Assembly: GCA_964016885.1 (NCBI GenBank)
Contig: OZ024740.1
Span: 204,290,001-204,354,000, forward strand
Direction of reading: 5' to 3'
Length of the DNA stretch: 64,000 nt
Origin: Eledone cirrhosa
Taxonomy: Eukaryota
The notes below the pieces were generated by a model. That model did not search any database, was not told the origin of the DNA, and was given only the letters and a program-made list of their open reading frames with translations. The first letter of the stretch is position 1; every line of letters begins with the position of its first letter. Positions 3,579 through 25,276 of this stretch are shown in pieces. Position numbers and translations under genes: made by a program.

Positions 3579-3616
<38 letters not shown>

Positions 3617-3643
3617 TAGAAGTGTTACATTCGTGAGAAATAT

Positions 3644-3652
<9 letters not shown>

Positions 3653-3698
<46 letters not shown>
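3653..3698. repeat. (TAA)n microsatellite; left boundary of the retrotransposon stack and 3' tail of element A1
   Basis: About 15 perfect TAA units abutting the element 3' end. Confidence 0.95.
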
Positions 3699-3700
<2 letters not shown>

Positions 3701-3960
3701 TTTCTTTATTAACCACAAGGGTTTACATAAAGTAGACATTAAGGACAGTGCAGGACAATGCAGGACGGTACAAATGGGCATTTCTGCGTGTAAAAAAACA
3801 AAAACAGAGGATGTAACAAAAATAACAATGAAAATAACAATGAAAAATTCCCCAATAGGGGGGAGACTTCGGAGGGACATTTGTGGAGAAAGCCCAGTAA
3901 AAAGCCACAATGACCCTGACCACCAAGGCAAGTGCCCTCTCCCAGTTTTCCACCTTTAGT

Positions 3961-6900
3961 TTACAGATATATACTCAGAGTCGGCCCATTCACTCGGGCC
4001 ATTCTTGCTTCTCTCACCCATCTTTCAACAAAATGCTGGGAAGAGAGCACTTCCTTCTCTACTCTGATTTTCCTTTTCAAATGAAATTTGAAAAAGTCAA
4101 TCAGAGCATCACCGAAGAGGTAAGTGCTCGTCTTCAGCCCTTTCAAACGTGTCCACCATACTATCTCTTTCGCCATGGCCACCAGACAGATAAAAACTGC
4201 CTGCCCTTCCCGGCTAAAGGAGGAGGGCGGGGCAATCCTCACGATAGACTCAGATGATAGCTGGATCCGTCCTAAACGCGACAGCAGGTGTTCGACATAA
4301 ACCCACAAGTCAGCAATTTTCGGACACTGGACGAGTGCGTGCAGGACGGTTTCGTCGCCCTGCGCGCATCTCGGACATGCCCGGCTGACGGCACCTCCAT
4401 GCCTGTAGAGTTTATCCCGAACTGGCAAGGCTCCTCGGTAGCACTGCCAGGCCAGAGATTTCTGGAAGTTGTCCATAGGCCCCGGCCCGAAAGTTCTTCC
4501 GAAGAGATTGGCTAGTTGATTTTCGTCGACGCCTAGAGTTTCCCCAAGTACGTCGTCGCTCTTACCCTCCACTAATCCTCTATAGAACGCCGAGGTGGAG
4601 TTTCCACCGATCACATTGCCCGATTGGTCGAGGGCTGTGAGCGCCTGAAGACATTCCAGTCTCCAGGCGCTCCCTCTCGGTCTTCGCTTGACCCAGGACT
4701 GCAGCTCCGTCAAGGAAACGAGCTGGGGAAATACGTGTCTAGCAAACGGCGACCACACCTGATCACCGTCGAGGAAGAGGTGGAGATGTCGTAGCCTGAG
4801 CGCGTGCCTGCGCATCATCAGCCACGGCATGCCCAGCCCTCCACGTAGCGGGTGTTGACAACAGATGCCTCTCCAGGTGCCGAGCTGCAGGCCCACTGAC
4901 TTTTCTTGGTTGATCATTGCTCCTGTCACCGCTTCGTATTCTCTTAGTGTAGTGCCGATCGCCTCGATGTGTTTGGCGTTCGACACCACTACGGTGACAT
5001 CGTCGGCATATGCTGACACGGATCTTCCGCATCCTAGTTCGCGCGGGATGCCCCTCAACGTCTCCAGTTTGGGCAGTAATGGCTCGAGAGTCAATACGTA
5101 CAAGAGGAACGAGAGGGGACATCCTTGGCGGACCGAGCGCATGATGTTGAACGGTTCCGACAGGTGACCGTTCACTCTCACCACAGAGCAGATGTCGCTG
5201 TGCATGGCAGCGATCCAGCCTCTGAAGACGGGCCCAAAGCCAGCCGCCCTCAGGACTGCCGCTAGGTAACGATGGTCGACCCTATCGAAAGCTTTCGACT
5301 GATCTAAATTGATCAAGGACCCACCCGTGCCAGGTTCCCTAGCTACACTCTCTACGATGTATCGCATGAGGTGGAGGTTGTCGTGGATGGATCTATCGGG
5401 AATGGCGCATGTCTGCGCCTCTCCCACCAGACCACCAACGACAAGCGCCAACCTCTTTGCTAGCACCTAGGCCAAAATCTTGAACTCTGTGTTTAGCAGA
5501 GTTATGGGCCGGAAATTATCTATGTTATCCCCCTTGTTCGGATCCTTTCTCAGCAGTACCACCGCTCCTCGGCTCACAGAACTGGGAATTCTCCCGTTCT
5601 GTTGCCAGTTGCAGTAGACGTCCGCCAAGAGGCCTCCGAACAAGTCTGGCATCTGTACGTAAAGTTCATAGGGCAGACCATCCAAACCAGGCAATTTACC
5701 CCTTGTGCAGCCAGTCATTGCCTCCCTTACTTCAGCGGCTGTTATCGGCTTTTCGCAACACTTCGCCTCAGTGGCCGAGAGACCCCGAACAGCTGAGCGA
5801 AGTGTCGCTGAAAAGCTTCACACATTTGCCCGGGATCGAGTAACATGCGCCCGTCGTGGTCCACCAAAGACCGGATCGTGGCTTTGTTGCCACGACGCGC
5901 CTCCGCCACTCGGGCCCATTGAACGGCTTTCGTCCCCTCGTGTCTGAGAGCACGCACCCTTGCTCTGACAACGCAGCCTTCGTGCTTTGCATTGAAGAAT
6001 TGGTCAAGGGCCAATTTCGCCGCAAGCACGTCGGTCGCAATGCCTTTGCTAAGCGCCTCGTCTAATTTTCTAACTAGTTCTCCCTCTGCTCTATTTTTCT
6101 CTATTGCTAAAGCCTTACTAAACCTAATGGATTCTATTCTAATCGCTCTTTTCAGAGCAAACCACCACTTGTTGTTGACGATGGCCCCCGTCAATGCCCG
6201 CTTAACTAGTTCGCTAATCCGGTCTCTGTAGGCCTTGCGCGCTGGTAAGGACGCGTTTAGCTTCCAGTAGCCGGGTCCTCGTCTATGAAGCCTATCTAAG
6301 TCAAGCACACAGATCACGAATTTGTGGTCCGTGTAGCTGACTATCTTGAATTGTGGACAGCCTATGCTAGACCTATCTATTTCCCTACAAAATACTCTAT
6401 CTAGATATGATCTGGATGACCCTATGAGATTTGTCCAAGTCCACATTGGCACATTCGGGAAATCCAATCGGTACCTGTCAGACAGTTCAAAACGCCTGAG
6501 CAGGTTGGTGAGGCTCTTGCACCCTCCACCCCTATCCGCTAATCCCACACAGTCCCAGCGTGCATCTAAGATCCCGTTCCAGTGGCCCACTAACACTAAA
6601 GAGCGGGACGTTCCAAGAAAGGTCTCCAGACGCCGGAAGAAATCAGGCCGCCCTGCTCCTGTCGGGGCATAGACGGCCACTAGCCTGAAAGCTTGCCCGT
6701 CTCCGCTGGTCACGTCCAGCACCACCAACTTACCCTCTGGGTCCAGGAAGATGGCCCGTATGGCGAGATCCAAACCTCTCCGAAAAAGCACAGCAACTCT
6801 TCCCCCCGATCCAGGACGGCTGGGAGATGCGTACACATCGTAGCCGCCGAAGATCGGTGCGAAGGCCGGTGCTTCGGAGATTCTGGTCTCGCTGATGGCC

Positions 6901-7004
6901 ACTACATCTATGTTTAGTGACCTGAGGTCGTTGAGCAGGTGACCCTGCTTCCATGACGACCCCAAGCCACGCGCATTTATGCTGCCTATTCTGAGTGAGT
7001 TCAT
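3961..7004 (-). pseudogene. Family A1 ORF2 (APE endonuclease + RT + CCHC), disrupted
   Basis: SINARGL, AISET, VYAP, YLDR, TDH, YWKLN, DQSKAFDRVDH, QGCPLS, AYADD, CPRC..ETVLHALVQC. Relative to A2: deletions near 4867 (~320 bp) and 5780 (~58 bp), and a TAG at 5467. Confidence 0.92.
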
Positions 7005-7039
7005 GTTTAAAATAGAGTGGAAAAGATGGGAAAGACCAC

Positions 7040-9152
7040 TTACCGTACTTTTCGTAGAGGAGGGATGGTTTTTACATCCCTTTTCACTTGATCGTCTGGT
7101 GAAGGGACTGTTGAATCGTCCCTTCGGCTGGTCATCGGCTCTTCTATGAGTATGTCCGAATATACTCTTCGGTTGATAGTTCCTCCTAGGTCTCTGAAAT
7201 CACCAACTGCGTTGGGGAATTTCGTTTTAATGTTTGTGTATTGTTTCTGTGCTATTTTTAGCAGTCTTATGTTAGTTGGCGTTTTGATTGGTGCTGGTAT
7301 TATGTAGTCGTGTTGTGAAATGTCTGTGTGTTCAATTATGTAAGTCATTAGTTTCTTGTTGTGTGTATTTATTGCCGTGCATTTGTTTTTCTGGGGGTGG
7401 GGTGTGGTTCTGCTATTTTCTTGTTTTTGCTGGGTGTGTGTGTTTTGTTGTTGTGTTTGCGATGTTGGTGCTTGTGGTGGTGGTGTTGAAGGTGTTGTTG
7501 TTGTTGGCGGTGGGGTTGTCGCCGGTGGTGATGGTGGTGCTAGTGTGGGTTGTGATGGTGTTGGTGGTGTTGCTGCTGTGAGTCTCTTTGCAATAGACTT
7601 TACCCTTTTTTCATTTCTTTCCTCCCTTTTCAAAGGCGACGATGCGCTGCTTCTGCGTTTGTGCCTTCTTACGACCTTTTGCCATTCCTCTCCCACCTCA
7701 CACTCCATGTCTGATTATGTGAGGTCGGGGAGGGGTACCAGCTCCACTCTTTCACTTGTTGTTGTTGGTGATGTTTGCACTGGAGTCTCTGTTTCAGCTG
7801 CATTTGGTATTGCTGTTGTTGTTAATACTTCCACTGCTGCTGCTGTTTTTGATTTCCGTGGCGTGGGTATGGGTGCCACGGACCTATCGTTCCTGGTTGC
7901 CGCTTGTCCTGTTGCTGGTAGCCGTGGAGCCGGTTTCGGGAGGAGGGGGGTTTCTCCTTTCTCAGGGTCTTCTCGTTGCAGAAGGCCCTGAGGTGAGTCT
8001 TCGATCCACAGCGAAAGCATTTCGGGCGTTTGCCCTCAACACTTATGGGCAGTTGAGTGCCGTTATCGAAGTCTATCACATCCGGGATAGCTTCGATGCA
8101 CTCCTGGTTGGTTTGGATTAACATCTCAATGGAGGTGCCGACCCAATCTTCTCTTACTTTTTTCTGTACTTGCAGTACAGTTGTTTTGTCCTCGATTCCG
8201 ACGAGGACAGATGCGGCCAGCCAAGAAGGGGCCATCCCGGGGGGGGGGCGTGGGTCAGTTTGACCCTCACAATTTTTTGCCCGCAGTAGGAGGGCACCAA
8301 CACCATTTCCTCGCTCCTTAGGGTCACTACGGATTGAACCTTTTCCTCCTGGGGTGTGGCAAAAAGTACGTCTACGGTGGCATATTTCTTGCCTCGGGTG
8401 ATGTGTGTTTTCCGCTGCCACACAGACCCCAAGGCTTTTTGTATTTGAGCCTCTGTGGCTCTTTCCACCCTACGGGATTTTGTACTTACTGTACGGTACG
8501 TGACCGTACAGTGCTGTTGGGTTTCGAAAAAATTTTCCGCTGCCTTGCAGATTGCTCGGTGTCCAGTCTTTGTCACCATCTTCTTCGCTTCCTCTAATTC
8601 CTCATTTGTTATGAGGATTGTTTCCAGGTTCTTCGCGATACCTGCAAACGAGATTGGTTTTTCTTTGCTGCTGTTGTTGTTGTTGTTGTTGTCGTCAGAG
8701 CTGCTGTTACTTTTGTTGTTGCTGCAGGTACTACGACTACTGCCGCCGCCGCTGTTGCTGTGGTTGTTGTTGTTGTTGTTGCTGCTGCTAATGCTGTTGT
8801 TGTTTATGCTGCTGCTGATGCTGTTGCGGCTGCTACTGTTGTTTTCATTGTCACTGTTGCTGTTGCTATTACGGCTGCTACTGCTATTATTCCTGACGTC
8901 AGACGAATGAAATGGGTTTTCGTATTTCCCGCACACCTGTTTCGTCGTCGTTGTCGTCGTCGTCGTGGAGAAATCTTGCACGCTTTGCACGAGACTTTTC
9001 TTTTCTGTCGTCGCTTGCGAAAGAGAAGGGAGGGAGAGAGACACATTTAAAGAAGGGAGGGAGAGAGACAATCTTCTCTCTGCTGTAGTGACGATTGAGG
9101 AAGAAGACGGAATGAGTGGGAGTGACCTATGAACATTCTTTTTCGTAGCCAT
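7040..9152 (-). pseudogene. Family A1 ORF1 (gag-like), frameshifted
   Basis: Split over ORFs 8154-9191, 7822-8421, 7715-8020 and 7040-7708; knuckle CFRCGSKTHLRAFC. Confidence 0.88.
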
Positions 9153-9371
9153 GTTGTTTTTTTTTTTGTTTAAAATAAATATTGGGCACAAAACCCCAAT
9201 AAGCAGTTATTTAACCCCGAAGGGCCAAATAACGGGCAGAAAGACCCCTCTCACGAGGAGGAGGGTGTTTTTGTCTACAAGTTGGTAAAAGTTTTAAACA
9301 ATTTACAATTGTTATAACGTTCAAAATTTACAATACCTTACAGAGCAGAGCCTCCGTCAACCATAGCATTC

Positions 9372-9428
<57 letters not shown>
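9372..9428. repeat. (AAT)n spacer between the A1 5' end and the SINE 3' end
   Basis: About 19 perfect AAT units. Confidence 0.95.
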
Positions 9429-9608
9429 TGTTTCTACTTTTGGCACAAGGCCAGCAATTATATCAGTGCATTACTGGTACTTTATTTTATCGACCCCGTA
9501 ATGATGAAAGGTAAAGTTAACCTCGGCGGGATTTGAACTCAGAATGGCAAGGGCCGTAACTCTATGCGCCAAAGCATGGCATCCGACACTCTACCGATAC
9601 TGCCAATT
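9429..9608 (-). mobile_element. SINE family 1 copy inside the stack
   Basis: Reverse complement of 378-553 with 2 substitutions by eye. Confidence 0.9.
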
Positions 9609-9889
9609 AATGATCTCATTTATTAACCACAAGGACCGACATGTAGGGGACAATACAAAGACAGGGACAGTGGGGTTTACAATAAGGTCGAGTAAAAGTG
9701 CACAATGGCAAGACTAATTTAACAATGAAAATATAAAAATATAAAATAAACTATGCATAAATATAACAAAATAAATTCCCCGATAGGGGGTGGACGACCC
9801 TGGGGTGATTCGGGTACCCCACCAATCCTGAACCACCCTGCGCTTCTAGGGCACCCAGGGAGGGCACCCCTCTCCTCAAGTTAGCCAGC

Positions 9890-12800
9890 CTATAGGCGCA
9901 TGGTCAGAGTAGGCCCATTCACACGAGCCATTCTCGCCACATTCACCCACCTTTTAGCAAATGTACTGGGGGACAGCACTTCTCTCTCCACCCTCACCCT
10001 CCTTTCCAGGTGAAACTTGAAGAAGTTGATGAGGGATTGGCCGAAAAGAAAAGTGTCTGTCTTTAGTCCTTTCAACCTGGTCCACCATATAATCTCTTTC
10101 GCAACTGCCACCAGACAGAGGAAAATGTCCTGCTCTTCCTGACCTAAGGAAGGTGGGGGCTCGATCTTCACTATGGACTCGGCCGATAGCCGGATTCGTT
10201 CCACACGCGACAGAAGCTGTTCGACATAACTCCACAAGTCAGTAATGCACGGACATTGGACAAGTGCGTGCAGAACGGTTTCGTCGTTCTGTGCGCATCT
10301 TGGGCAGGTCCGTCTGACAGCACTTCCGTGCCTGTAGAGTTTATCCCGAACCGGCAGTACCCCCCCCCCCCCGGTAGCACTGCCAAGCGAGGGATTTCTG
10401 GAAATTGTCCATCGTCCCCGGCTCAAAAGTCCTCCGGTACAGACTGGTCAGTTCGACTTCGTCGAGGCCCAAAGCTTCTCCGAGTGCGTCATCGCACTTG
10501 CCCACCACTAATCCTCTATAGAACTCGAGAGTGGAAGTTCAACTGATCGCATTGCCAGGTGCCAGTCACCCAGTCTCGGTCTCTTCTTGGCCCAGGACTG
10601 CAGCTCAGTCAAAGAAATGAGCTGCGGAAAGGCCCGTCTGATAAACGGCGACCACACCTGTTCACCATTGAGGCAGAATATCTGGAGATGTCGCAGCCTC
10701 AACGCATGTCTGCGCATCATTAGCCACGGCATGCCCAGCCCTCCGCGTAGAGGGTGCTGGCAGCAGATGGACCGCCTCACCAACGGAACTTGTCCCCTCC
10801 ACAAGAATTTGAAGAGGAGCCGTTCCAACTTGACGAGGCGCGGACGGTGGCAAGGCACGACGGTTAGGCGGTAGTATATGACGGACGCGATGTACGCATT
10901 CGCCACCTCCGCGCGACCTTTCAGTGATAGCTTCCTCCCAGCCCATTTTTTGGTGAGACTGGCTGCTCTGCTCGTTACCTCGTCCCAATTCTTTTCCACC
11001 TGGAGGTCTGGTCCGAACCAAACCCCGAGCAACTTTACCGGTCCGTCCGTCCAGCGCCCCACGACGCTGTTGGACGGCATGGGCTTGCCTCTCCAGGTTC
11101 CGAGCTGCAAGCCCACCGACTTTTCCGGGTTAAGTTTGGCTCCTGTCAACCTTTCATATTCCTTCAGTAAGGTGCCGACCACCTCGATTTCTGAGGTGTT
11201 CGACACCATCACGGTGATGTCGTCCGCATAAGCCGACACCGTCTTTCCACGTCCCGGTTCGAGCGGGATGCCCTGCAACAGCTCCAGCTTCCGCAGTAAA
11301 GGCTCGAGAGTCAATACGTACAGAAAGGAAGAGAGAGGGCACCCTTGACGGACCGATCGGGAGAGCCGAAATGGTTCCGAGAGGTGGTCATTAACCTTGA
11401 CCACCGAGCGTGTGCCGCTGTGCATTGCAACGATCCAGCTTCTAAAGACAGGGCCGAAGCCAGTCGCTTTGAGGACAAACTCCAGATACCGATGGTCGAC
11501 CCTATCGAATCCTTTCGATTGATCTAAATTGATCAGTGCCCCACCGAAGCCAGGTTTACACCCTACCCTCTCTATGATGTATCGCATGAGGTGGAGATTG
11601 TCGTGTATGGACCTGGCTGGGATTGCGCAAGTTTGCGCCTCCCCAACCAAATCCTCGACGACAAGCGCCAATCTCTTTGCTAACACCTTGGCCAAAATCT
11701 TAAACTCTGTGTTGAGCAGAGTTATGGGCCTGAAGTTGTATAATGTATCCCTCTTGTTCTCGTCTTTCCTTATCAGCGTCACCACTCCCCTGCTCACAGA
11801 ACTGGGAATACTCCCATTCTGCTGCCAGTTACAGTAGAGTGCTTCGAGGAGTTCGGAGAACAAGTCTGGCATATTTACGTAAAGCTCGTAGGGCAGGCCA
11901 TCCAAACCGGGTGACTTGCACCTCATGCAGCCGACAAGGGCGTCCTGAATTTCAGCTGAAGTAATCGGCCTTTCGCAGCGCTCAGCGTCGACCGTCAAGA
12001 TGCGCGACAAGCCGTCAAGGTAGGGACTGTAATCCGCTACTCTCTCTGACTCGCCACTCTCCCTGAACAACCGAGCAAAGTGCTGGCGAAAGGCCTCACA
12101 CATCCGCTTGGAATCGCTTATCTCGTGTCCGTCTCGGTCCGTCAAAGACCGAATTGTGGTTTTATTACCACGCTGCGCCTCTGCCACGCGGGCCCATCGA
12201 ACAGCTTTAGTTCCCTCGATTCTCAGCGCACGCGCCTTAGCTCTGACAATGCAACCTTCGTGTTTGGCGTTGAAGAAATGGTCTAATGCCATTCTCGCCG
12301 CTAGCACGTCAGTTGCGATGCCACTACAAATACCCTCGTCTAACTTATCTACCAGCTCCCCCTCCTTTCTATTTTTCTCTAACGCTAGTTCTTTGCTGAA
12401 CTCTATCGAAGTTACTCTAATCTCTCTTTTGAGAGCCCCCCACCATCTGTTGTTGATAATCCCCCCTGTCAACTTTTGCTTAACTAAATTGTTGACTCGG
12501 TCCCTGTAAGCCTTACGTGCCGGAAATGACATGTTCAGCTTCCAGTAACCCGGTCCTAACCTACGCGTTTTATTTAGGTCGACCGTACAGATCACAAATT
12601 TGTGATCTGAATAGGCGACCGTTTTAAAAAGTGGACAGCCCACACTATTTCTATCTATTTTCCTAATGAAGATCCTGTCTATATACGATCTAGATGACCC
12701 CATTCGGTTGGTCCATGTCCATACTGGCACATTGGGGAAATCTAGTCGATACCTGTCAGACAGTTGGAACTGGCTGAGTAGGTGCTTGAGGCTTTTGCAC

Positions 12801-13283
12801 CCCCCGCTCCTATCGGCTACTCCCACACAATCCCAGCGTGCGTCTATGATGCCATTCCAGTCCCCCGCTAACAGTAAAGGGCGAGACATACCCAGAAAGC
12901 TCTCCAGCCGCCTAAAGAAGTCAGGTCGTCCGGCCCCTGTAGGGGCATAGACGGCCACCAGTCTAAAGGCACCACCTTCGCTACTGCTCACATCCAAGAC
13001 CACCAACTTACCGTCCGGGTCCCGGAAGATCGACCTTACCTCGAGATTCCAGTCCTTTCCCAAACAGCACTGCCACCCCACCTCCCATTCCCGGCCTGCT
13101 AACAGATGCGAAGATCTGATAGTCGTCGAAAATGGGGGCTAGTGCGCGCGTGTCGGAAATTCTGGTCTCGCTTACGGCAATCACATCCATTTCCAGCGAC
13201 CGGAGGTCGTTGAGCAGGGGACCCTGCTTCCAGGGTGACCCCAGGCCGCGAACATTTAAACTTCCTACTCTTAATATGGCTAT
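9890..13283 (-). pseudogene. Family B ORF2 (APE-RT-CCHC), frameshifted
   Basis: ILRVGSLNVRGLG, IAVSET, YSDH, YWKLN, DQSKGFDRVDH, AYADD, GGLGMP; breaks near 13070, 10550 and 10370; start position reads ATA. Confidence 0.9.
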
Positions 13284-13292
13284 ATTGGTAAG

Positions 13293-15252
13293 CTAAGAGA
13301 GAGAGAGGGAAGGTTTACTTACCTCCCGGGTCTTGTGAAGGTCGGGTGGTTCGACCTCCATGGTTGGTGAGGTTTCTTTTGGGAACCCCTTTAAAAGTCT
13401 TGATGTAGGTTTCACATTCGGGGTTCCCACGTCTTGAGGAAAGCTCTCTCGAATTTCTTTGAAGGAATTGAATGACATTCGGACCAGAAGAAAATCTTCT
13501 GGCACGCAAAATGTGCTCATTTCAAAAATCTCCCCCTCTGTTTGAATGTCCTCGCTTCGCGCTAAGAGGGCCATCAGTTTATCGTTGGCCCTTCTGACAA
13601 GCACGAAGTTTTTAACATTTTGTTGGTGTGGTTTTATTTGTTTTCGTTTTGGTGAAGGTGGTGGCGATGGTTTTGGTGGTGTTGTTTCGGGTATGTCTAT
13701 GTTTGTTGTAGGTGTGGTGTCTGCAATTTCAGGTATTTGTGTGTTTATTTGTACTTGTGTTTGTTTAGGTTGTTTGCGTTTCGGGGATTGTGGAGGTGGT
13801 GTCGATGTTGCTGTTGGTGATGATGTTATTGGGGAAGTGTTTGCGTTAGTGGTGTCTGTAATTTTTGTTGTGTGTGTTTTTGTGTTTTGTTGGGGCTTTT
13901 TTTTTTGTGAGTTTTCTCTGTTTTTTTTGCACTTTTGGGTTTTCCTTCATCTTCGCTGCTGGAAGACAAAGGGTCTGTGTCTGTGAGTGTCTCTGTGTCT
14001 GTGTGTGCGTTTATTGTTTTGTCTATGTGTATAATTGGGGGGTAGGGGGAGTGGGAGAGCTTTCCTCGTTTTCTCCTTGGATTGGTTTTGGTGTTGGTGG
14101 TGATCCGGCTGCTTTTGATGTTGAGTCCGTGTTTCTGTTGATGTTGTTTTTGGTGGTGGTGGTGGTGCAGCTTTCCGTGCTGACACTAGCGTTGGCAACA
14201 AAGGAGGTTTGCGACCCCCTGCATTTTTGCGCTGAGGGCAGAAGGCTTGAAGATGCGTTGCTTCCCCGCAGACGAAGCAGCGTGGCCTTCTTCCGTCAAT
14301 CATTAGTTGGATTGTTGTCCCGTCTTGCAGGCGGGCAAAATCCGGGATGTTATTCATATCTTCCGGTTTCATTTGGAGAAGAATCTCCAAATCGATTCCG
14401 GACCAGTCCTCTCTCTCTGTCCTTTTGATGTCCAGGAGGGTAGTGTCTGTCCCCTCCTCGATTACGCATCCCAGCAGCCACCATATGTTCATTCCTGGTG
14501 GGATGCTGGGAATGCGTACCTTCACTGTCCTTTTACCCATATAGGAAGGATGCATGATAATGCGTTCGGTTCTGCAGGGTCACCGAGTGCTTAATAGCGA
14601 GGGCCTCGGTTTTGAACAGTACCGAGATGGTACCGAACTGTTTGCCTCTTGCTTTGTACTCTATGTTACTTCCGATGTACTCCAAAGCAGCCTTTACCTC
14701 TGCTTGGCTCGCAAGTTCCACTTTTCGTGTCTGCACCGAAATGCATCAAAAGTACACCGTACTCCTTTGCATGGCCGCTATTGCCTCGTCCGGGATGGTC
14801 AGGTTTTCCCAGGACTTCTCCCGTTTAATTAGCCTCCACGCTTTGGCCAACTGTTCGTCTTTATCGCTAATATCAATATCAATATTCAATAAGCGCTTTG
14901 TTTTTGCTGCTGCTGCAGCAAATGTGGTGTTTTTGATGCTCTTATTGTTGCTGTTGCCACCGCCATCCTTGTTTACATTGAAGCTGTCGGTGTTATTGTC
15001 GTTATTGCTCTGAGTTGTTGTTGTTGTGGTGGTGGTGGTGGTGGTGGTGGCGGTGGTGGTGATGTCGTTTTCAGATGATACTGCTGCTATGGCAGAAGGT
15101 TGTGATGGTAGCTTTTGAGTTTTGCCTTCACATTCAGTAGAGTGGATGACAGGCATGACTGTAGCCGTCGTAGTCGTGGTGAAATCTGCAGTGGCTGCCG
15201 TTAAACTTTTGACCTGAACGTTGTTTACCGTTTCAAGGTCGAAAATTTCCAT
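13293..15252 (-). pseudogene. Family B ORF1 (gag-like), frameshifted
   Basis: ORFs 14746-15252, 14533-14736, 13947-14555 and 13293-13604 match the family A ORF1 layout (low-complexity N-terminus, RRM-like core, CCHC knuckle, T/P-rich linker). Confidence 0.85.
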
Positions 15253-15478
15253 AATTTTCTTTTGGTGGGGAAGCGATTTTTTTCGAAGTTTTTTAAAATA
15301 AATCTGAATATTCGGGCTTAAAGCCCGAATATTGAGAGGTATCCCTCTCTTTAAATCAAGATGTGTACCTTAAGTTTCGTTAATGACAAGAAAATACAAG
15401 AAAAAGACATTTTAAAACAGCTTAAAGTTACGAACCTTTTCTCCCGCAGATTTGTACTGTCTTCACACATGTGCGGCC

Positions 15479-15540
<62 letters not shown>
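15479..15540. repeat. (AAT)n spacer between the B 5' end and the A2 3' end
   Basis: About 20 perfect AAT units. Confidence 0.95.
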
Positions 15541-15542
<2 letters not shown>

Positions 15543-15790
15543 TTTCTTTATTAACCACAAGGGTTTACATAAAGTAGACATTAAGGACAGTGCAGGACAA
15601 TGCAGGACGGTACAAGTGGGCATTTCTGCGTGTAAAAAACAAAAACAGAGGATGCAACAAAAAATAACAATGAAAAATTCCCCAATAGGGGGGAGACTTC
15701 GGAGGGACATTTGTGGAGAAAGCCCAGTAAAAAGCCACAATGACCCTGACCACCAAGGCAAGTGCCCTCTCCCAGTTTTCCACCTTTAAT

Positions 15791-18700
15791 TTACAGATAT
15801 ATGCTCAGAGTAGGCCCATTCACTCGGGCCATTCTTGCTTCTCTCACCCATCTTTCAACAAAATGCTGGGAAGAGAGCACTTCCCTCTCTACTCTGATTT
15901 TCCTTTTCAAATGAAATTTGAAAAAGTCAATCAGAGCATCACCGAAGAGGTAAGTGCTCGTCTTCAGCCCTTTCAAACGTGTCCACCATACTATCTCTTT
16001 CACCATGGCCACCAGGCAGATAAAAACTGCCTGCCCTTCCCGGCTAAAGGAGGAGGGCGGGGCAATCCTCACGATGGACTCAGATGATAGCCGGATCCGT
16101 CCTAAACGCGACAGCAGGTGTTCGACATAAACCCACAAGTCAGCAATTTTCGGACACTGGACGAGTGCGTGCAGGACGGTTTCGTCGCCCTGCGCGCATC
16201 TCGGACATGCCCGGCTGACGGCACCTCCATGCCTGTAGAGTTTATCCCGAACTGGCAAGGCTCCTCGGTAGCACTGCCAGGCCAGAGATTTCTGGAAGTT
16301 GTCCATAGGCCCTGGCCCGAAAGTTCTTCCGAAGAGATTGGCTAGTTGATTTTCGTCGACGCCTAGAGTTTCCCCAAGTACGTCATCGCTCTTCCCCTCC
16401 ACTAATCCTCTATAGAACGCCGAGGTGGAGTTTCCACCGATCACATTGCCCGATTGGTCGAGGGCTGTGAGCGCCTGAAGACATTCCAGTCTCCAGGCGC
16501 TCCCTCTCGGTCTTCGCTTGACCCAGGACTGCAGCTCCGTCAAGGAAACGAGCTGGGGAAACACGCGCCTAGCAAACGGCGACCACACCTGATCACCGTC
16601 GAGGAAGAGGTGGAGATGTCGTAGCCTGAGCGCGTGCCTGCGCATCATCAGCCACGGCATGCCCAGCCCTCCACGTAGCGGGTGTTGACAACAGATGGAC
16701 CGCCTGACCATCGGAGCGCGTCCCTTCCACAAAAAGCGAAAGAGCAAACGCTCCAGCGCAGTCAGGCGAGGCTTAGGACAAGGTACGACGGTCAGACGGT
16801 AGCAGATGACGGACGCGATGTACGCGTTAGCCACCTCCGCTCGACCTTTCAGGGATAGCTTCCTCTCCGCCCATTTCTGGGTGAGAGAAGCCATCCTGCT
16901 CGTCACCTCGTCCCAGTTTTTGTCCGTCTGGAGGTCCGGACCGAACCAGACCCCTAGCAATTTAACCGGTCCGTCCGTCCAGCGTCCGACGACGCTGTTG
17001 GACGGCATGGACCTGCCTCTCCAGGTGCCGAGCTGCAGGCCCACTGACTTTTTCTGGTTGATCATTGCTCCTGTCACCGCTTCGTATTCTCTTAGTGTAG
17101 TGCCGATCGCCTCGATGTGTTTGGCGCTCGACACCACTACGGTGACATCGTCCGCATATGCTGACACTGATCTTCCGCATCCTAGTTCGCGCGGGACTCC
17201 CCTCAACGTCTCCAGTTTGTGCAGTAATGGCTCGAGAGTCAATACGTACAAGAGGGACGAGAGGGGACATCCTTGGCGGACCGAGCGCATGATGTTGAAC
17301 GGTTCCGACAGGTGACCGTTCACTCTCACCACAGAGCAGATGTCGCTGTGCATGGCAGCGATCCAGCCTCTGAAGACGGGCCCAAAGCCAGCCGCCCTCA
17401 GGACTGCCGCTAGGTAACGATGGTCGACCCTATCGAAAGCTTTCGACTGATCTAAATTGATCAAGGACCCACCCGTGCCAGGTTCCCTAGCTACCCTCTC
17501 TACGATGTATCGCATGAGATGGAGGTTGTCGTGGATGGATCTGTCGGGAATGGCGCATGTCTGCGCCTCTCCCACCAGACCACCAACGACAAGCGCCAAC
17601 CTCTTTGCTAGCACCTTGGCCAAAATCTTAAACTCTGTGTTTAGCAGAGTTATGGGCCGGAAATTGTCTATGTTATCCCCCTTGTTCGGATCCTTTCTCA
17701 GCAGTGCCACCGCTCCTCGGCTCACAGAACTGGGAATTCTCCCGTTCTGTTGCCAGTTGCAGTAGACGTCCGCCAAGAGGCCTCCGAACAAGTCTGGCAT
17801 CTGTACGTAAAGTTCATAGGGCAGACCATCCAAACCAGGCGATTTACCCCTTGTGCAGCCAGTCATTGCCTCCCTTACTTCAGCGGCTGTTATCGGCTTT
17901 TCGCAACACTTCGCCTCAGTGGCCGAGAGCCGCGGCAGTCCGTCGAGGTAGACACTAAAGTCCATCCCTCTACCCGGCCCCCCGCTGCCCCCGAACAGCT
18001 GAGCGAAGTGTCGCTGAAAAGCTTCACACATTTGCCCGGGATCGAGTAGCATGCGCCCGTCGTGGTCCACCAAAGACCGGATCGTGGCTTTGTTGCCACG
18101 ACGCGCCTCCGCCACTCGGGCCCATTGAACGGCTTTCGTCCCCTCGTGTCTGAGAGCACGCACCCTAGCTCTGACAACGCAGCCTTCGTGCTTTGCATTG
18201 AAGAATTGGTCAAGGGCCAATTTCGCCGCAAGCACGTCGGTCGTAATGCCTTTGCTAAGCGCCTCGTCTAATTTTTTAACTAGTTCTCCCTCTGCTCTAT
18301 TTTTCTCTATTGCTAAAGCCTTACTAAACCCTAATCGATTCTATTCTAATCGCTCTTTTCAGAGCAAACCACCACTTGTTGTTGACGATGGCCCCCGTCA
18401 ACGCCCGCTTAACTAGTTCGCTAATCCGGTCTCTGTAGGCCTTGCGCGCTGGTAAGGACGCGTTTAGCTTCCAGTAGCCGGGTCCTCGTCTATGAAGCCT
18501 ATCTAAGTCAAGCACACAGGTCACGAATTTGTGGTCCGTGTAGCTGACTATCTTGAATTGTGGACAGCCTATGCTAGACCTATCTATTTCCCTACAAAAT
18601 ACTCTATCTAGATATGATCTGGATGACCCTACGCTATTTGTCCAAGTCCACATTGGCACATTCGGGAAATCCAATCGGTACCTGTCAGACAGTTCAAAAC

Positions 18701-19211
18701 GCCTGAGCAGGTTGGTGAGGCTCTTGCACCCTCCACCCCTATCCGCTAATCCCACACAGTCCCAGCGTGCATCTAAGATCCCGTTCCAGTCGCCCACTAA
18801 CACTAAAGAGCGGGACGTTCCAAGAAAGGTCTCCAGACGCCGGAAGAAATCAGGCCGCCCTGCTCCTGTCGGGGCATAGACGGCCACTAGCCTGAAAGCT
18901 TGCCCGTCTCCGCTGGTCACGTCCAGCACCACCAGCTTGCCCTCTGGGTCCAGGAAGATGGCCCGTATGGCGAGATCCAAACCTCTCCGAAAAAGCACAG
19001 CAACTCCTCCACCCGATCCAGGACGGCTGGGAGATGCGTACACATCGTAGCCGCCGAAGATCGGTGCGAAGGCCCGTGCTTCGGAGATTCTGGTCTCGCT
19101 GATGGCCACTACATCTATGTTTAGTGACCTGAGGTCGTTGAGCAGGTGACCCTGCTTCCATGACGACCCCAAGCCACGCGCATTTATGCTGCCTATTCTG
19201 AGTGAGGTCAT
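15791..19211 (-). pseudogene. Family A2 ORF2 (APE-RT-CCHC) with one frameshift
   Basis: ORFs 18324-19211 and 15791-18235 join if one C is removed at ~18330 (aaaccctaa versus aaacctaa in A1); catalytic motifs GDWN, YLDR, TDH and YADD are present. Confidence 0.9.
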
Positions 19212-19246
19212 GCTTAAAATAGAGTGGAAAAGATGGGAAAGACCAC

Positions 19247-21328
19247 TTACCGTACTTTTCGTAGAGGAGGGATGGTTTTTACATCCCTTTTCACTTGATC
19301 GTCTGGTGAAGGGACCGTTGAATCGTCCCTTCGGCTGGTCGTCGGCTCTTCTAAGAGAATGTCTGAGTATACTCTTCGATTGATGGTTCCTCCTAGGTCC
19401 CTGAAATCACCAACTGCGTTGGGGAATTTCGTTTTAATGTTTGTGTATTGTTTCTGTGCTATTTTTAGCAGTCTTATGTTAGTTGGCGTTTTGATTGGTG
19501 CTGGTATTATGTAGTCCTGTTGTGAAATGTCTGTGTGTTCAATTATGTAAGTCATTAGTTTCTTGTTGTGTGTATTTATTGCCGTGCATTTGTTTTTCTG
19601 GGGGTGGGGTGTGGTTCTACTATTTTCTTGTCGTTGTTGCTGGGTGTGTGTGTTTTGTTGTTGTGTTTGCGATGTTGGTGCTTGTGGTGGTGGTGTTAAA
19701 GGTGTTGTTGGCGGTGGTGATGGTGGTGCTAGTGTGGGTGGTGATGGTGTTGGTGTTGTTGCTGCTGTGGGTCTCTTTGCAGTAGACTTTACCCTTTTCT
19801 CATTTCTTTCCTCCCTTTTCAAAGGCGACGATGCGCTGCTTCTGCGTTTGTGCCTTCTTACGACCTTTTGCCATCCCTCTCCCACCTCACACTCCATGTC
19901 TGATTCTGTGAGGTCGGGGAGGGGTACCAGCTCCACTCTTTCACTTGTTGTTGGTGATGTTTGCACTGGAGTCTCTGTTGCAGCTGCATTTGGTATTGCT
20001 GTTGTTGTTGTTGTTAATATTTCCACTGCTGCTGCTGTTTTTGATTTCCGTGGAGTGGGTATGGGTGCCACGGACCTATCGTTCCTGGTTGCCGCTTGTC
20101 CTGTTGCTGGTAGCCGTGGAGCCGGTTTCGGAAGGAGGGGGGTTTTCTCCTTTCTCAGGGTCTTCTCGTTGCAGAAGGCCCTGAGGTGAGTCTTCGATCC
20201 ACAGCGAAAGCATTTCGGGCGTTTGCCCTCAACACTTATGGGCAGTTGTGTTCCGTTATCGAAGTCTATCACATCCGGGATAGCTTCGATGCACTCCTGG
20301 TTGGTTTGGATTAGCATCTCAATGGAGGAGCCGACCCAATCTTCTCTTACTTTTTTCTGTACTTGCAGTACAGTTGTTTTGTCCTCGATTCCGACGAGGA
20401 CAGACGCGGCCAGCCAAGAAGGGGTCATTCCGGGGGGGACGTGGGTTAGTTTGACCCTCACAATTTTTTGCCCACAGTAGGAGGGCACCAACACCATTTC
20501 CTCGCTCCTTAGGGTCACTACTGATTGGGCCTTTGCCTCCTGGGGTGTGGCAAAAAGTACGTCTACGGTGGCATATTTTTTCCCTCGGGTGATGTGCGTT
20601 TTCCGCTGCCACACAGACCCCAAGGCTTTTTGTATTTGGGCCTCTGTGGCTCTTTCCACCCTACGGGATTTTGTACTTACTGTACGGTACGTGACCGTAC
20701 AGTGCTCTTGGGTTTCGAAAAATTTTTCCGCTGCCTTGCAGATTGCTCGGTGTCCGTTCTTTGTAACCATCTTCTTCGCTTCCTCTAATTCCTCATTTGT
20801 TATGAGGATTGTTTCCAAGTTTTTCGCAATACCTGCAAATGAGATTGGTTTTTCTCTGCTGTTGTTGTTGTCGTCAGAGCTGCTGGTACTTTTGTTGTTG
20901 CTGCAGGTACTACGACTACTGCCTCCGCCGCTGTTGCTGTGGTTGTTGTTGGTGTTGCTGCTGCTAATGCTGTTGTTGTTTATGCTGCTGGTGATGCTGT
21001 TGCGGCTGCTACTGTTGTTTTCATTGTCACTGTTGCTGTTGTTATTACGGCTGCTACTGCTATTATTCCTGACGTCAGACGAATGAACTGGGTTTTCGTA
21101 TTTCCCGCACACCTGTTTCGTCGCTGTCGTCGTCGTCGTGGAGAAACTTTGCACGCTTTGCACGAGACTTTTCTTTTCTTTCGTCACTTGCGAAAGAGAA
21201 GGGAGGGAGAGAGACACATTTAAAGAAGGGAGGGAGAGAGACAATCTTCTCTCTGCTGTAGTGATGATTGAGGAAGAAGAAGACGGAATGAGTGGGAGTG
21301 ACGTATGAAATTTCTTTTTCGTAGCCAT
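19247..21328 (-). CDS. Family A2 ORF1, 693 aa gag-like RNA-binding protein
   Basis: Uninterrupted ORF; single CX2CX4HX4C knuckle; N/S-rich and T/P/Q-rich low-complexity tracts. Confidence 0.9.
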   Translation of the reverse strand: MATKKKFHTSLPLIPSSSSSIITTAERRLSLSLPSLNVSLSLPSLSQVTKEKKSLVQSVQSFSTTTTTATKQVCGKYENPVHSSDVRNNSSSSRNNNSNSDNENNSSSRNSITSSINNNSISSSNTNNNHSNSGGGSSRSTCSNNKSTSSSDDNNNSREKPISFAGIAKNLETILITNEELEEAKKMVTKNGHRAICKAAEKFFETQEHCTVTYRTVSTKSRRVERATEAQIQKALGSVWQRKTHITRGKKYATVDVLFATPQEAKAQSVVTLRSEEMVLVPSYCGQKIVRVKLTHVPPGMTPSWLAASVLVGIEDKTTVLQVQKKVREDWVGSSIEMLIQTNQECIEAIPDVIDFDNGTQLPISVEGKRPKCFRCGSKTHLRAFCNEKTLRKEKTPLLPKPAPRLPATGQAATRNDRSVAPIPTPRKSKTAAAVEILTTTTTAIPNAAATETPVQTSPTTSERVELVPLPDLTESDMECEVGEGWQKVVRRHKRRSSASSPLKREERNEKRVKSTAKRPTAATTPTPSPPTLAPPSPPPTTPLTPPPQAPTSQTQQQNTHTQQQRQENSRTTPHPQKNKCTAINTHNKKLMTYIIEHTDISQQDYIIPAPIKTPTNIRLLKIAQKQYTNIKTKFPNAVGDFRDLGGTINRRVYSDILLEEPTTSRRDDSTVPSPDDQVKRDVKTIPPLRKVR

Positions 21329-21533
21329 GTTGTTTTTTGTTTAAAATGAATATTGGGTACAAAACCCCAATAACTGGTCATTTAGCCCCGAAGGGCCAAA
21401 TAACGGACAGAAAGATCCCTCTCACGAGGAGGAGGGTGTCTTTATCAACAATTTGGTTCAAGTTTTAAACAATTTACAATTGTTTTAACGGTTAAAAATT
21501 ACTATACCTTACAGAGCCGAGCCTCCGTCAACC

Positions 21534-24500
21534 ATGGCATTCAATAATAATAATAATAATGAGAATGAACTTGCCAACTTGAAGGATGAAATTATGATCG
21601 AATGGATGAAAATGAAAGAATCTGACATGGGGCAACGAGACACCCTCCCTAAGATCCAGAACTCCAAACAGAACCAAAAGATAATACACAAGACTAACAT
21701 AATTCTCAAAAACATTATCATCACAAACAAACTAAACATTACTGATTTAAATCATCTCTATTATGCATCGGCTAAAGTCACCACTCACTTATGTGGAGTG
21801 AAGATGAAAAAACAAAGGAATTCCCACAAGAAATCTACTTGGCAAGAGAACATCAATCGCCAAATAAACCTTCTCCGATCTGACATAGACATTTTAACAA
21901 ACTATAAAGTAGGTGAACATGTTAAACAAACTAAACTTAGAAAATTGAAAAAAAAGTACAGTATAAAATCAACATGTGACATAGACATGCTGATAGAAAT
22001 AATCAAGCAAAAAGTGTCGGCCAAAGCTGCTCGTATAAGGCGCTTTGAAAAACGATCTAGATTCTATAAGGACAATAATATGTTCAAAAACAACCAAAGA
22101 AACTTCTACAGAAAAATTGGTAAGTCAACAATAACTGTTAAATCAATACCACCCAAGGAGGAAGTGCAAGAATTCTGGGAAAAGATCTGGGCCGAAGAAA
22201 AAGTTCATAACATACATGCCCCATGGATAGACAGACAAATGAAAGATACAGCTCACCTTGAGGAACAAACATGGGAAAATATAACAGTTGAACAGTTGCG
22301 CTTGGCTCTAAGAAAAACCAGCAAATGGAAATCCCCAGGAAAAGACAAAATACAAAACTTTTGGATAAATGCCTTCACAGAGTCTCATGAGCTGTTAGCC
22401 CAACTTTACAATGAAATAGTTAAGGAGCCAGAAAAGATACCATCATGGCTAGTTAACGGCATTACATTCCTGCTTCCGAAGAATGATGAGACAAACAATC
22501 CCCAAAATTACAGACCGATAACTTGCTTGACCACAATGTATAAAATTTTAACATCAGTCCTAACTGAATACACATATGACCACCTGATAACAAATGACCT
22601 ATTTCCCATTGAGCAGAAAGGGTGTAAACGAGGCTCATATGGCTGTAAGGATCAGCTTCTGGTTAACAAAATGATACTGGAAGATTGTCATAATAGACAC
22701 AAAAATCTATCGATTGCTTGGATAGATTATAAAAAAGCATTCGATAGTTTGCCACACAGTTGGATTGAAAAATGTTTAGAGATTTTCAAAATATCCCCCG
22801 TTGTCAGGAGGTTTTTGTCATTCAGTATGAAGACATGGAAAACGACACTCCTTTTGAATAGTGAAACAAAATCACTGGAAGCTGGAGAAGTTAATATTAA
22901 TTGTGGAATTTTTCAGGGTGACTCTTTATCACCGCTTTTATTCTGCATTGCACTTATACCATTAAGTAAAATGCTCAATGAAACAAAACATGGATATAAA
23001 GTCTATGACAAAACCATTAATCACCTGTTCTACTTGGATGACCTGAAACTATTTGCAAAAAATTATGAACAATTGCAAGGGCTATTATCCACTGTGAAGC
23101 AGTTCAGTGATGACATTAAAATGGAGTTTGGACTAGATAAATGCGCCAAAGCAACGTTCACCAGAGGAAAGCTGCTGAAGAGTTCAGACATTAATCTTGA
23201 TCGGGGGAACGTGATAAGAGAAGTTGATCAAGAAAAAACTTACAAATATCTAGGTGTTTGTGAAGGAGACGGAATGAAGCACTCGACAATGAGGGAAAGG
23301 ATAAGGAAGGAATGTTACCGCAGAGTAAGAGCAATCTTAAGAACGGAATTGAATGCAAGGAATAGGATCGATGCCATAAACATGCTTGCCATACCAGTAG
23401 TAACCTACAGTTACAATGTCATCAACTGGTCAAGCACAGAGATCCGTAGGCTCGATACAAAAATTCGAAAATTCTTAACCATGCACAGAATGCATCACCC
23501 TAAGGCAGATATAGATAGAATATATCTCCCTAGGAAAGAAGGAGGACGTGTGTTAATCCAGTTAGACATTGCGTTGAAAACTGCAACAATTGGATTATCT
23601 ACATATCTAAGGGAATCACATGATTGGATGATCAAACTCGTTTTGAAACACGAAAGCATCAAAAGATCATATTCCATTACAAAAGATGCACAAAGATACA
23701 GTAATGGACTACAAATTTCAGAAGTCCCATTTACTGCTGAAATGGAAAACACAAAAAAAGCAAAGCAGGTAAAAGTAACTGCAAAGAAAGAACTGCTACA
23801 GAAACTGGCTAAGAAATGGCAAGAAAAGCCTCTGTATGGAAAATACCCAGAGCGAGCTAACAATCCTGATGTTGACAAAACTTTAACCCATCAGTGGTTG
23901 GCATCCTCTGGACTGAAATCGGAGACTGAAGGACTGATTATATCGGCACAAGATCAGTGTCTGCCAACAAAAAATTACCAAGCCAACATAAAAAAAAATG
24001 GGTGCAGCCCATTATGCCGTGTATGCAAAAAACAACCAGAGACCATTGACCATATAATTTCAATGTGCAGTCCTATAGCTCCAACCGAATACCTAAACAG
24101 GCATGACAGAGCTGCACAATACATACATTGGATAATGTGTAAGCATTTTGACCTGCCCCATCAAAAGAATTGGTGGGAGCATCAACCACCTCCCATACTT
24201 GAAAAAGATCACATCTCAATCTTGTGGAACTTTAGCATCCAAACAGACCGAAAAATAGATGCAAATAGACCTGATATAATACTGAAGGGCTTTAAAAAGA
24301 GGGTATGCCTGCTAATTGATATGTCCGTTCCAATAGACAAAAATGTATCTATAAAAACATTTGAAAAATTGAGCAAGTGTAAGGACCTGGAGATAGAAAT
24401 TGGAAAAATATGGAAATTGAGAACTAAAACAATACCAGTGGTTGTAGGCGCTCTAGGAATGATACCTAAGGGGTCTAATGATTACTTATCGCAAATCCCA

Positions 24501-24581
24501 GGAAACCCGTATATAGGAGAAATACAAAAGATAGTACTAATGGGAACTGCCCATATACTAAGGAAGATTCTGTCAATATAA
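21534..24581 (+). CDS. RT + CCHC + restriction-like endonuclease ORF (1015 aa; first 9 codons come from the A2 end and the microsatellite)
   Basis: YRPITCL, WIDYKKAFDSLPH, GIFQGDSLSPLLF, HLFYLDDLKLF, CRVC..ETIDHIISMC, RHD, NRPDII..LIDMSVP, EKLSKC (canonical KY appears mutated). Confidence 0.85.
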   Translation: MAFNNNNNNENELANLKDEIMIEWMKMKESDMGQRDTLPKIQNSKQNQKIIHKTNIILKNIIITNKLNITDLNHLYYASAKVTTHLCGVKMKKQRNSHKKSTWQENINRQINLLRSDIDILTNYKVGEHVKQTKLRKLKKKYSIKSTCDIDMLIEIIKQKVSAKAARIRRFEKRSRFYKDNNMFKNNQRNFYRKIGKSTITVKSIPPKEEVQEFWEKIWAEEKVHNIHAPWIDRQMKDTAHLEEQTWENITVEQLRLALRKTSKWKSPGKDKIQNFWINAFTESHELLAQLYNEIVKEPEKIPSWLVNGITFLLPKNDETNNPQNYRPITCLTTMYKILTSVLTEYTYDHLITNDLFPIEQKGCKRGSYGCKDQLLVNKMILEDCHNRHKNLSIAWIDYKKAFDSLPHSWIEKCLEIFKISPVVRRFLSFSMKTWKTTLLLNSETKSLEAGEVNINCGIFQGDSLSPLLFCIALIPLSKMLNETKHGYKVYDKTINHLFYLDDLKLFAKNYEQLQGLLSTVKQFSDDIKMEFGLDKCAKATFTRGKLLKSSDINLDRGNVIREVDQEKTYKYLGVCEGDGMKHSTMRERIRKECYRRVRAILRTELNARNRIDAINMLAIPVVTYSYNVINWSSTEIRRLDTKIRKFLTMHRMHHPKADIDRIYLPRKEGGRVLIQLDIALKTATIGLSTYLRESHDWMIKLVLKHESIKRSYSITKDAQRYSNGLQISEVPFTAEMENTKKAKQVKVTAKKELLQKLAKKWQEKPLYGKYPERANNPDVDKTLTHQWLASSGLKSETEGLIISAQDQCLPTKNYQANIKKNGCSPLCRVCKKQPETIDHIISMCSPIAPTEYLNRHDRAAQYIHWIMCKHFDLPHQKNWWEHQPPPILEKDHISILWNFSIQTDRKIDANRPDIILKGFKKRVCLLIDMSVPIDKNVSIKTFEKLSKCKDLEIEIGKIWKLRTKTIPVVVGALGMIPKGSNDYLSQIPGNPYIGEIQKIVLMGTAHILRKILSI

Positions 24582-24726
24582 GTACATCACAAGTCTAAAC
24601 GCCTAAAGATGTATGTGTGAGTATGTATGTTCTTTCTTGAACATGGCGGACCTTGTTGTCTCTTGAGGTCACTGGTTGTTACTTGGTGATAACTCGTACG
24701 AACATAAAGCAAGATAGATGCAGCTG
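21561..24726 (+). mobile_element. R4/Dong-clade RLE non-LTR retrotransposon, 5'-truncated, with (TAA)n tail
   Basis: (AAT)6 at 21543-21560 and (TAA)n at 24727-24746 flank it; Dong-type elements are known to target TAA repeats. Confidence 0.9.
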
Positions 24727-25078
24727 TAATAATAATAATAATAATATTATTTATAGTTATGTATACACTATATCATACACCTACGGTAGTAGGTGTATAA
24801 TATTCTTAAGGTCCCATTTCGGTCACTCGCGACACCTTCAAACTTTGTCACTAATTCAATTTTTGATAGAATTGGATGCGGTTTTTTGCACTTTATAGGA
24901 CCACAGATAAGCTACTTTTTTACATAAAAATATTTAAATTTGGTTCAGTAGAAAAAAAGTTACATAAAAATAAGTGAGGACCAAAAGAGTGTAAGGAACT
25001 ACATACATAAGTAACGCTTAGTTTGTTTCTAATTTCCAATACATTAAAATAGTGATAGATTGTACAATAGCGAATTGT

Positions 25079-25151
25079 GGTCAGGTAGCTCAGACGGTAG
25101 AGCAGCGGACCGGCAATCCGAAGGTCGTGGGTTCGATTCCCACCTTGATTA
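25079..25151 (+). tRNA. tRNA-like cloverleaf, nominal anticodon GGC (Ala); probably a pseudogene or repeat-borne
   Basis: D arm GCTC-AGACGGTA-GAGC, anticodon arm CGGA-CCGGCAA-TCCG, T arm GTGGG-TTCGATT-CCCAC; acceptor stem has three G-U pairs; C at position 33. Confidence 0.55.
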
Positions 25152-25276
25152 CTTTTCCTATCTGCACTTCTTCCTATTCATTATTATTTATTATTAGTTT
25201 TTAACTTATTTGTTGATAAATATTTTTATTAATATTTATATAATATCCTTGCATTGCCTGGAAAAAAAGTGGATTA

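What the first reader, a model, noticed from the sequence alone, without database searches (positions are those of the whole stretch)
3653..24746. 21-kb stack of five retroelements inside one (TAA)n microsatellite: a self-renewing landing pad
Seen: the order is (TAA)n - Tx1-A1(-) - (AAT)n - SINE(-) - ATT - Tx1-B(-) - (AAT)n - Tx1-A2(-) - (AAT)6 - Dong(+) - (TAA)n, with no unique host DNA between elements. Known: Dong (R4 clade) targets TAA repeats, and some Tx1 families (Kibi, Koshi) target other microsatellites. Inference: A and B are (ATT)n-specific Tx1 families, and each insertion regenerates target because the tails are the target repeat. I do not recall this guild being described in cephalopods, but could not check.
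Basis: partly seen in the sequence, partly recalled or inferred. Interest (0 to 1): 0.85.

Follow-up and report, generated by a model that had tools for sequence, protein, structure and literature searches.

The report
Octopus retrotransposons queuing in ATT repeats
Five jumping genes of three kinds lie end to end in short AAT repeats of a likely octopus genome; one family starts right behind that repeat in about 96% of its intact starts genome-wide, so it likely aims at a repeat known so far as the target of an unrelated family, but such stacks are routine in this genome.

Summary
The stack is real: Tx1-like A1(-), SINE(-), Tx1-like B(-), A2(-) and a 5'-truncated Dong/R4 element(+), joined only by (AAT)n or 4 bases. 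ATT targeting by family A holds genome-wide: 2359 of 2444 exact 5' ends follow (ATT)3. B is looser: 60 of 124 exact, 25 of 29 sampled. A1 and A2 are separate insertions. The locus is typical, not special: 46 of 58 sampled A/B copies abut another guild member, with fixed polarity in 44 of 44 classified cases. SINE copies carry no tail of their own, but most (20 of 29) have 9-21 bp target-site duplications starting at Y|ATTAT, and one A copy shows the same. Renewal therefore likely comes mainly from target duplication plus slippage. The SINE's 3' end resembles the Tx1 3' ends, so it is likely their passenger. Dong-TAA targeting and microsatellite-specific Tx1 families are known; an (ATT)n Tx1 target was not found in eight paper searches (Repbase not checked). 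No read spanned the array and no empty allele was found. This scan reported the same guild at several other loci of this genome.

The parts
3652..3698 (.). (ATA/TAA)n, 15.7 units; 3' flank of A1
3699..9371 (-). A1: full-length Tx1-like LINE, family A; ORF2 broken, internal deletions of 316 and 59 bp against A2
9372..9428 (.). (AAT)19 between the 5' end of A1 and the 3' end of the SINE
9429..9607 (-). SINE lacking about 8 bases at its 5' end; 3' end resembles the Tx1 3' ends
9608..9611 (.). 4-base spacer between the 3' end of B and the SINE (shorter than the usual duplication)
9612..15478 (-). B: full-length Tx1-like LINE, second family (about 75% DNA identity to A over ORF2); ORFs broken
15479..15540 (.). 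(ATA)n, 20.7 units
15541..21542 (-). A2: full-length Tx1-like LINE, family A; long ORF1 frame, one frame break in ORF2
21543..21560 (.). (AAT)6 between the 5' ends of A2 and Dong
21561..24726 (+). Dong/R4-type element, 5'-truncated by about 1.8 kb; RT, CCHC finger and PD..D nuclease motif in one open frame
24727..24746 (.). (TAA)6 3' flank of Dong

Best explanation
The stack likely grew by separate, targeted insertions into one ATT/AAT microsatellite, with Tx1-like LINEs (and likely their passenger SINE) using one strand and Dong/R4 elements the other. Shown: positions, polarity, genome-wide flanks, SINE duplications beginning at Y|ATTAT. Inferred: the AP-type endonuclease of A/B nicks the (AAT)n strand at ATAAT|R; the RNA 3' end primes there; a staggered second cut duplicates about 14-18 bp (5-6 units), so both sides keep repeat; slippage then lengthens it. 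Each Tx1 copy ends in C followed by ATTAT, which recreates a cut site. Dong's restriction-like nuclease likely nicks the other strand, which gives the opposite orientation. Many targets are now flanks of earlier guild members, so trains form routinely.
For: 2359 of 2444 exact A 5' ends follow (ATT)3. B: 60 of 124 exact, 25 of 29 sampled with 3 units, 28 of 29 with 2. Copies chosen by their 3' end: 12 of 12 resolved full-length and 12 of 22 truncated copies have (ATT)3 at the 5' junction, and 6 more of the 22 have an ATTAT-type site by eye. Control: 0 of 14 copies of the neighbouring DNA transposon. SINE duplications of 12 bp or more in 18 of 29 copies against 14 of 812 mismatched pairs; among 20 copies with 9 bp or more, 19 have a pyrimidine at -1 and each of the five ATTAT positions matches in 19-20. 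A copy L152 has the same signature. SINE 3' 28 bases score against TxC better than 99.9% of 5000 random 28-mers but not against Dong or D2. Polarity: 23 Tx1/SINE neighbours same strand, 21 R4-type opposite, no exception. A1 and A2 are 93% alike over the 5' 2.1 kb but each about 97% like copies elsewhere and differ along their whole length.
Against: Only one clear (L152) and one approximate (L155) duplication could be read for Tx1 itself; pure repeats hide the rest. Four of 22 truncated copies (L159, L163, L179, L198) and full-length B copy L034 lack ATT at the 5' side; L034 and L198 still have (ATT)8 at the 3' side. L166 and L243 have ATT upstream but (CTT)n directly after the 3' end, which a simple duplication does not explain. 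The SINE is only weakly tied to long repeats (5 of 29 with (ATT)3 within 45 bases upstream), and its similarity to the A and B ends is modest (2.3% and 1% of random 28-mers score as well). The fixed phase of A's 5' junction could partly reflect ATT carried on the RNA. Samples were the best-scoring hits, so biased to young copies, and four neighbours matched library pieces cut from their own locus.
Confidence: 0.78

Rival explanations
1. One reading: the elements carry or synthesise (ATT)n/(TAA)n tails (read-through RNA or reverse-transcriptase slippage), so each insertion brings new target with it.
For: L034 and L198 have (ATT)8 at the 3' end with none at the 5' side. Variant (CTT)n or (GTT)n runs directly follow some 3' ends (L166, L243, L257). 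A/B end just after an AATAAA yet copies show no poly(A), which fits read-through into the repeat (inference). Slippage on 3' repeats is described for UnaL2 (PMC3747384, passage).
Against: SINE copies have a median of 2 ATT units at the 3' end, in most cases part of the duplication. L152, L155, L174, L176, L247 and L254 have 0-2 units. L034 also fits insertion at the edge of an existing run.
Confidence: 0.3
2. Some neighbours entered together, by template jumps between RNAs, read-through co-transposition or local recombination, so the stack reflects fewer than five events (for example B plus SINE).
For: Only 4 bases separate B from the SINE, against 9-21 bp duplications elsewhere; similar direct Tx1-SINE fusions occur at L174, L247, L253 and L254. 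In the C1:55.4 Mb train two truncated Dong pieces are identical over 812 bp, and the last ~780 columns of the adjacent A copies also match.
Against: The junction also fits SINE insertion at B's own C|ATTAT with 5' microhomology. Dong is antisense to the others. A1 and A2 show no identical block.
Confidence: 0.3
3. No active targeting: elements insert widely and survive or accumulate in microsatellite-rich DNA.
For: The genome is rich in microsatellites; passive accumulation was proposed for Drosophila Waldo-A/B (PMC3812793, passage).
Against: 96.5% of exact A starts sit on (ATT)3 in one phase, strand polarity is fixed, and the DNA transposon control gives 0 of 14.
Confidence: 0.04
4. This particular order is a misassembly joined at microsatellites.
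For: No contig from the public runs spanned the array.
Against: No N in the window, a 443-Mb contig, repeats of only 18-62 bp, distinct A1 and A2, and the same junction types at many other loci.
Confidence: 0.04

Closest known systems
Kibi (TC)n, Koshi (TTC)n and crocodilian (TTCC)n/(TTTC)n Tx1 families (PMC4494074 passages and section 15; PMC3812793 passage)
   Same: AP-endonuclease L1-group LINEs that insert into one microsatellite.
   Different: Target is (ATT)n, host is a cephalopod, and the target is shared with an R4-type element on the opposite strand; the octopus elements form their own clade apart from TX1-named vertebrate proteins.
Dong (Bombyx), DongAg, DongBg; R4 clade (PMC3812793 passage; Dong-R4 abundant in Octopus vulgaris, PMC13282606 Table 1)
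   Same: RT plus CCHC finger plus PD..D nuclease, (TAA)n on both sides.
   Different: Nothing essential; at least two families (Dong and D2) use the repeat here. No named Dong sequence was available for a tree.
SINEU / Tx1-Mar pair of crocodilians (PMC4494074 section 16 and passage)
   Same: A SINE sharing target preference with Tx1, tandem insertions sandwiching a duplication.
   Different: There the link is shared target and snRNA heads; here it is a Y|ATTAT site and a similar 3' end.
TRAS and SART in insect (TTAGG)n telomeres (recalled, no call)
   Same: Two element types in one simple repeat in opposite orientations, forming trains.
   Different: Those are both R1-clade and telomeric; here two unrelated nuclease classes share a dispersed trinucleotide repeat.

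Membership tests
Tx1 clade | Two ORFs; ORF2 with AP endonuclease, RT and C-terminal zinc finger | tested here: met
   Pfam on A1, B, A2; long ORF1 and ORF2 frames in other copies
Tx1 clade | RT groups with Tx1 rather than L1 in a tree | tested here: inconclusive
   No L1 or Repbase reference in the tree. TX1/YTX2-named proteins score 218-252 bits on the RT region against 151 bits for the human L1 core (different query span)
Tx1 clade | Target preference (Kojima's rule: more than 20% of flanks) | tested here: met
   A 2359 of 2444, B at least 60 of 124; rule from PMC4494074 passage
Tx1 clade | Endonuclease cuts the target in vitro | not testable with these tools
   needs purified protein
Dong / R4 clade | Single ORF with RT, CCHC finger and C-terminal restriction-like nuclease | tested here: met
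   motifs at aa 491, 819, 904; only R2 proteins match in the PDB
Dong / R4 clade | Insertion in (TAA)n | tested here: met
   29 of 29 3' ends; TAA also at the truncated 5' junctions of L063, L066, L067, L077, L082, L086
Dong / R4 clade | Groups with named Dong/R4 by RT | not tested
   no named reference among hits
Dong / R4 clade | 5' HDV-like ribozyme (PMC3774820 passage) | not tested
   the window copy is 5'-truncated; full-length copies were not folded
SINE partner of Tx1 | Shared 3' end with the LINE | tested here: inconclusive
   significant against TxC (0.08% and 0% of random), modest against A and B; no common fold
SINE partner of Tx1 | Same cut site and duplication as the LINE | tested here: met
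   Y|ATTAT and A copy L152; rests on one clear LINE case
tRNA-derived CORE-SINE (octopus OR1/OR2/OK) | tRNA head and CORE domain | not tested
   label recalled; no tRNA or Rfam match on the SINE

The most novel reading that the evidence does not exclude
Octopods carry an undescribed guild in which an (ATT)n-specific Tx1 lineage and TAA-specific Dong elements, with unrelated nucleases, have converged on opposite strands of one trinucleotide repeat, and the Tx1 machinery also drives an abundant octopus SINE through a shared 3' end and a Y|ATTAT cut, so that thousands of self-extending trains shape the genome's repeat landscape.
Probability: 0.5. Interest if true: 0.6.

Novelty: new variant of a known kind. 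Interest (0 to 1): 0.45.

Why it matters
It adds a target, (ATT)n, to the sequence-specific Tx1 group and gives a clean natural test of how an AP-type endonuclease reads DNA: over 2400 genomic junctions and a defined Y|ATTAT site. It names a likely driver for an abundant octopus SINE, for which the passages read give no partner. It may also help explain transposon hotspots reported in octopus (PMC13282606) as a result of targeting. The single locus has no sign of host function and is one of many.

Tried and rejected
Empty allele or spanning read: public runs were contigs of coded organisms, none spanned the array or showed the joined flanks; the right flank is a multicopy TA-flanked DNA transposon and the left-flank motif has one other copy, so neither gave an empty site. 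Tandem duplication of A1/A2: rejected. Ribozyme or RNA family at element ends: Rfam gave only a tRNA outside the stack, and folds of the six ends tested were no better than shuffles. Relatives with flanks in metagenome contigs: none. ESM Atlas gave only generic RT/endonuclease clusters; cluster names gave no Tx1 or Dong label. Dropped from the tree: P0293, P0189 (repeated domains) and the LINE at 34.5 kb. Dropped from counts: L056 and L058 as neighbours (internal low-complexity matches), two unclassified 'E' neighbours from the polarity count, and four loci that failed to orient, 23 that ran off the locus and three belonging to the alternative-5' subfamily.

Full report
Observation. The window has no N and five (TAA/AAT) runs of 18-62 bp between 3652 and 24746. 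Self-alignment, ORFs and Pfam and the junctions give: repeat 3652-3698, A1(-) 3699-9371, (AAT)19, SINE(-) 9429-9607, 4 bases, B(-) 9612-15478, repeat, A2(-) 15541-21542, (AAT)6, Dong(+) 21561-24726, (TAA)6. No host DNA lies between elements. A1 has two internal deletions, no Tx1-like copy has an unbroken ORF2, and Dong lacks about 1.8 kb of 5' sequence found in another copy. The genome is 3.0 Gb. An Argonauta protein is the best named hit, 72% identical, so an octopod host is inferred.

Identity. A and B encode AP endonuclease, RT and zf-RVT; the best solved relative is human L1 ORF2p. On the RT region TX1/YTX2-named vertebrate proteins score 218-252 bits against 151 for the human L1 core (not the same span). 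In the tree of 33 rows A, B, C and Argonauta form one clade (100/100), sister to unnamed proteins; the TX1-named rows form another, and no L1 row was available. 'Tx1-like' is therefore well supported but not proven. Dong has RT, a CCHC finger and a PD..D motif and matches only R2 proteins in the PDB.

Targeting. 2444 exact A 5' ends exist in the genome and 2359 follow (ATT)3 in one phase. For B the figures are 124 and 60; in 29 sampled copies 25 have three units and 28 have two within 18 bases. To test whether the repeat is merely part of the 5' end, copies were chosen by their 3' end. Of 64 loci, 4 failed to orient, 23 ran off the locus and 3 belonged to an alternative-5' subfamily; 12 of 12 full-length and 12 of 22 truncated copies had (ATT)3 at the 5' junction. 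By eye 6 more had an ATTAT-type site and 4 had none. Dong has (TAA)3 after 29 of 29 3' ends. Controls: about 0.1% of window positions outside the stack and 0 of 14 DNA-transposon copies.

How typical is the stack. 23 of 29 A copies and 23 of 29 B copies (after dropping two weak matches) abut another guild member across the 5' repeat. 23 Tx1/SINE neighbours are on the same strand, 21 R4-type neighbours on the opposite strand, 2 unclassified, none against the rule (four matches are to library pieces cut from the same locus, and samples are best hits). Among the first 100 listed A starts on C1, 15 adjacent pairs lie within 7.5 kb, all on one strand, against about 1 expected. A train with five A copies lies at C1:55.4 Mb. 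With about 0.8 per junction, five-member stacks are expected to be common (inference). A1 and A2 are 93% alike over the 5' 2.1 kb, each about 97% like copies elsewhere, with differences throughout, so they are separate insertions.

Mechanism of renewal. SINE copies sampled on their own mostly sit in non-repeat DNA, where duplications can be read: 18 of 29 have 12 bp or more (one mismatch allowed) against 14 of 812 mismatched pairs. In the 20 copies with 9 bp or more the site is Y|ATTAT. The SINE adds no tail: its 3' ATT units (median 2) mostly belong to the duplication. A copy L152 shows a 17-18 bp duplication of the same form and no tail; L155 is approximate. The SINE's last 28 bases align to family C better than 99.9% of random 28-mers, modestly to A and B, and not to Dong or D2. 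The inferred cycle is a nick on the (AAT)n strand at ATAAT|R, priming, a staggered second cut that leaves 5-6 units on both sides, and later slippage. Against a pure duplication model: L034 and L198 have (ATT)8 only on the 3' side, and L166 and L243 run into (CTT)n. The 4-base B-SINE joint could be an insertion at B's own C|ATTAT or a template jump. The insertion order could not be fixed; B is the most diverged from its relatives (best 94.5% against 97.7-99.6% for Dong, A2 and A1).

Not shown. No read spanned the array and no empty allele was found. No nuclease or transposition assay exists.

Literature. Eight searches. Read: PMC4494074 (passages, sections 15-16; supplements unavailable, figure 3 with targets not visible), PMC13282606 (parts 1-2 of 3 and a supplement search), and passages of PMC4640811, PMC3812793, PMC8967140, PMC9115989, PMC4758252, PMC4824008, PMC3774820 and PMC3747384. 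They give Dong as TAA-specific, Kibi, Koshi and crocodilian Tx1 as specific for other microsatellites, a Tx1-driven SINE in crocodilians, and Dong-R4 and L1-Tx1 as recently active in Octopus vulgaris without target data in what was read. No (ATT)n-specific Tx1 or octopus SINE-Tx1 pair appeared. Kojima and Fujiwara 2004, Repbase and the unseen supplements could hold it. TRAS/SART and the CORE-SINE label are recalled. Earlier notes of this scan describe the same guild at several other loci of this genome; they are leads, not support.

Verdict. Real and correctly described; targeting supported genome-wide; tail-based renewal only partly supported; the locus is one of many. New variant of a known kind, interest 0.45.

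Noticed in passing
L278-L282 (G000:C1 about 55.42-55.46 Mb): Train of five full-length A copies (98.7-99.2% alike), two truncated Dong pieces and SINEs. The two Dong pieces are identical over 812 bp and the last ~780 columns of the A copies before them also match: local duplication or read-through.
   Followed up: partly
L186, L185, L191, L194, L284: Subfamily with A's ORF2 (about 95%) but a different 5' end and ORF1 region: module swap among Tx1-like families.
   Followed up: partly
L094, L097, L111, L140 and others: Second R4-type family (D2), frequent in the same repeats and always opposite to Tx1; a third Tx1-like family (C) and an unclassified end ('E') also recur.
   Followed up: partly
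window 24766-about 26730: Multicopy element about 95% like other copies, preceded by TA runs in most of 14 copies, with an internal inverted repeat (25270-25445 / 26315-26495) and a tRNA-Ala(GGC)-like sequence at 25079-25152; looks like a DNA transposon starting 20 bases after the stack.
   Followed up: partly
window 3616-3642 and 26653-26727; L277: Two motifs that are contiguous in L277 lie 23 kb apart and in reverse order in the window, each beside a (TA)n run. Unexplained.
   Followed up: no
window 34508-36832 (-): Another LINE with RT and a PHD-finger match, unrelated to the stack.
   Followed up: no
window 51312-52040 (+): SRCR domain match, probably a host exon.
   Followed up: no
L166/L188, L243, L257: (CTT)n or (GTT)n runs begin one unit after the Tx1 3' end.
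   Followed up: partly
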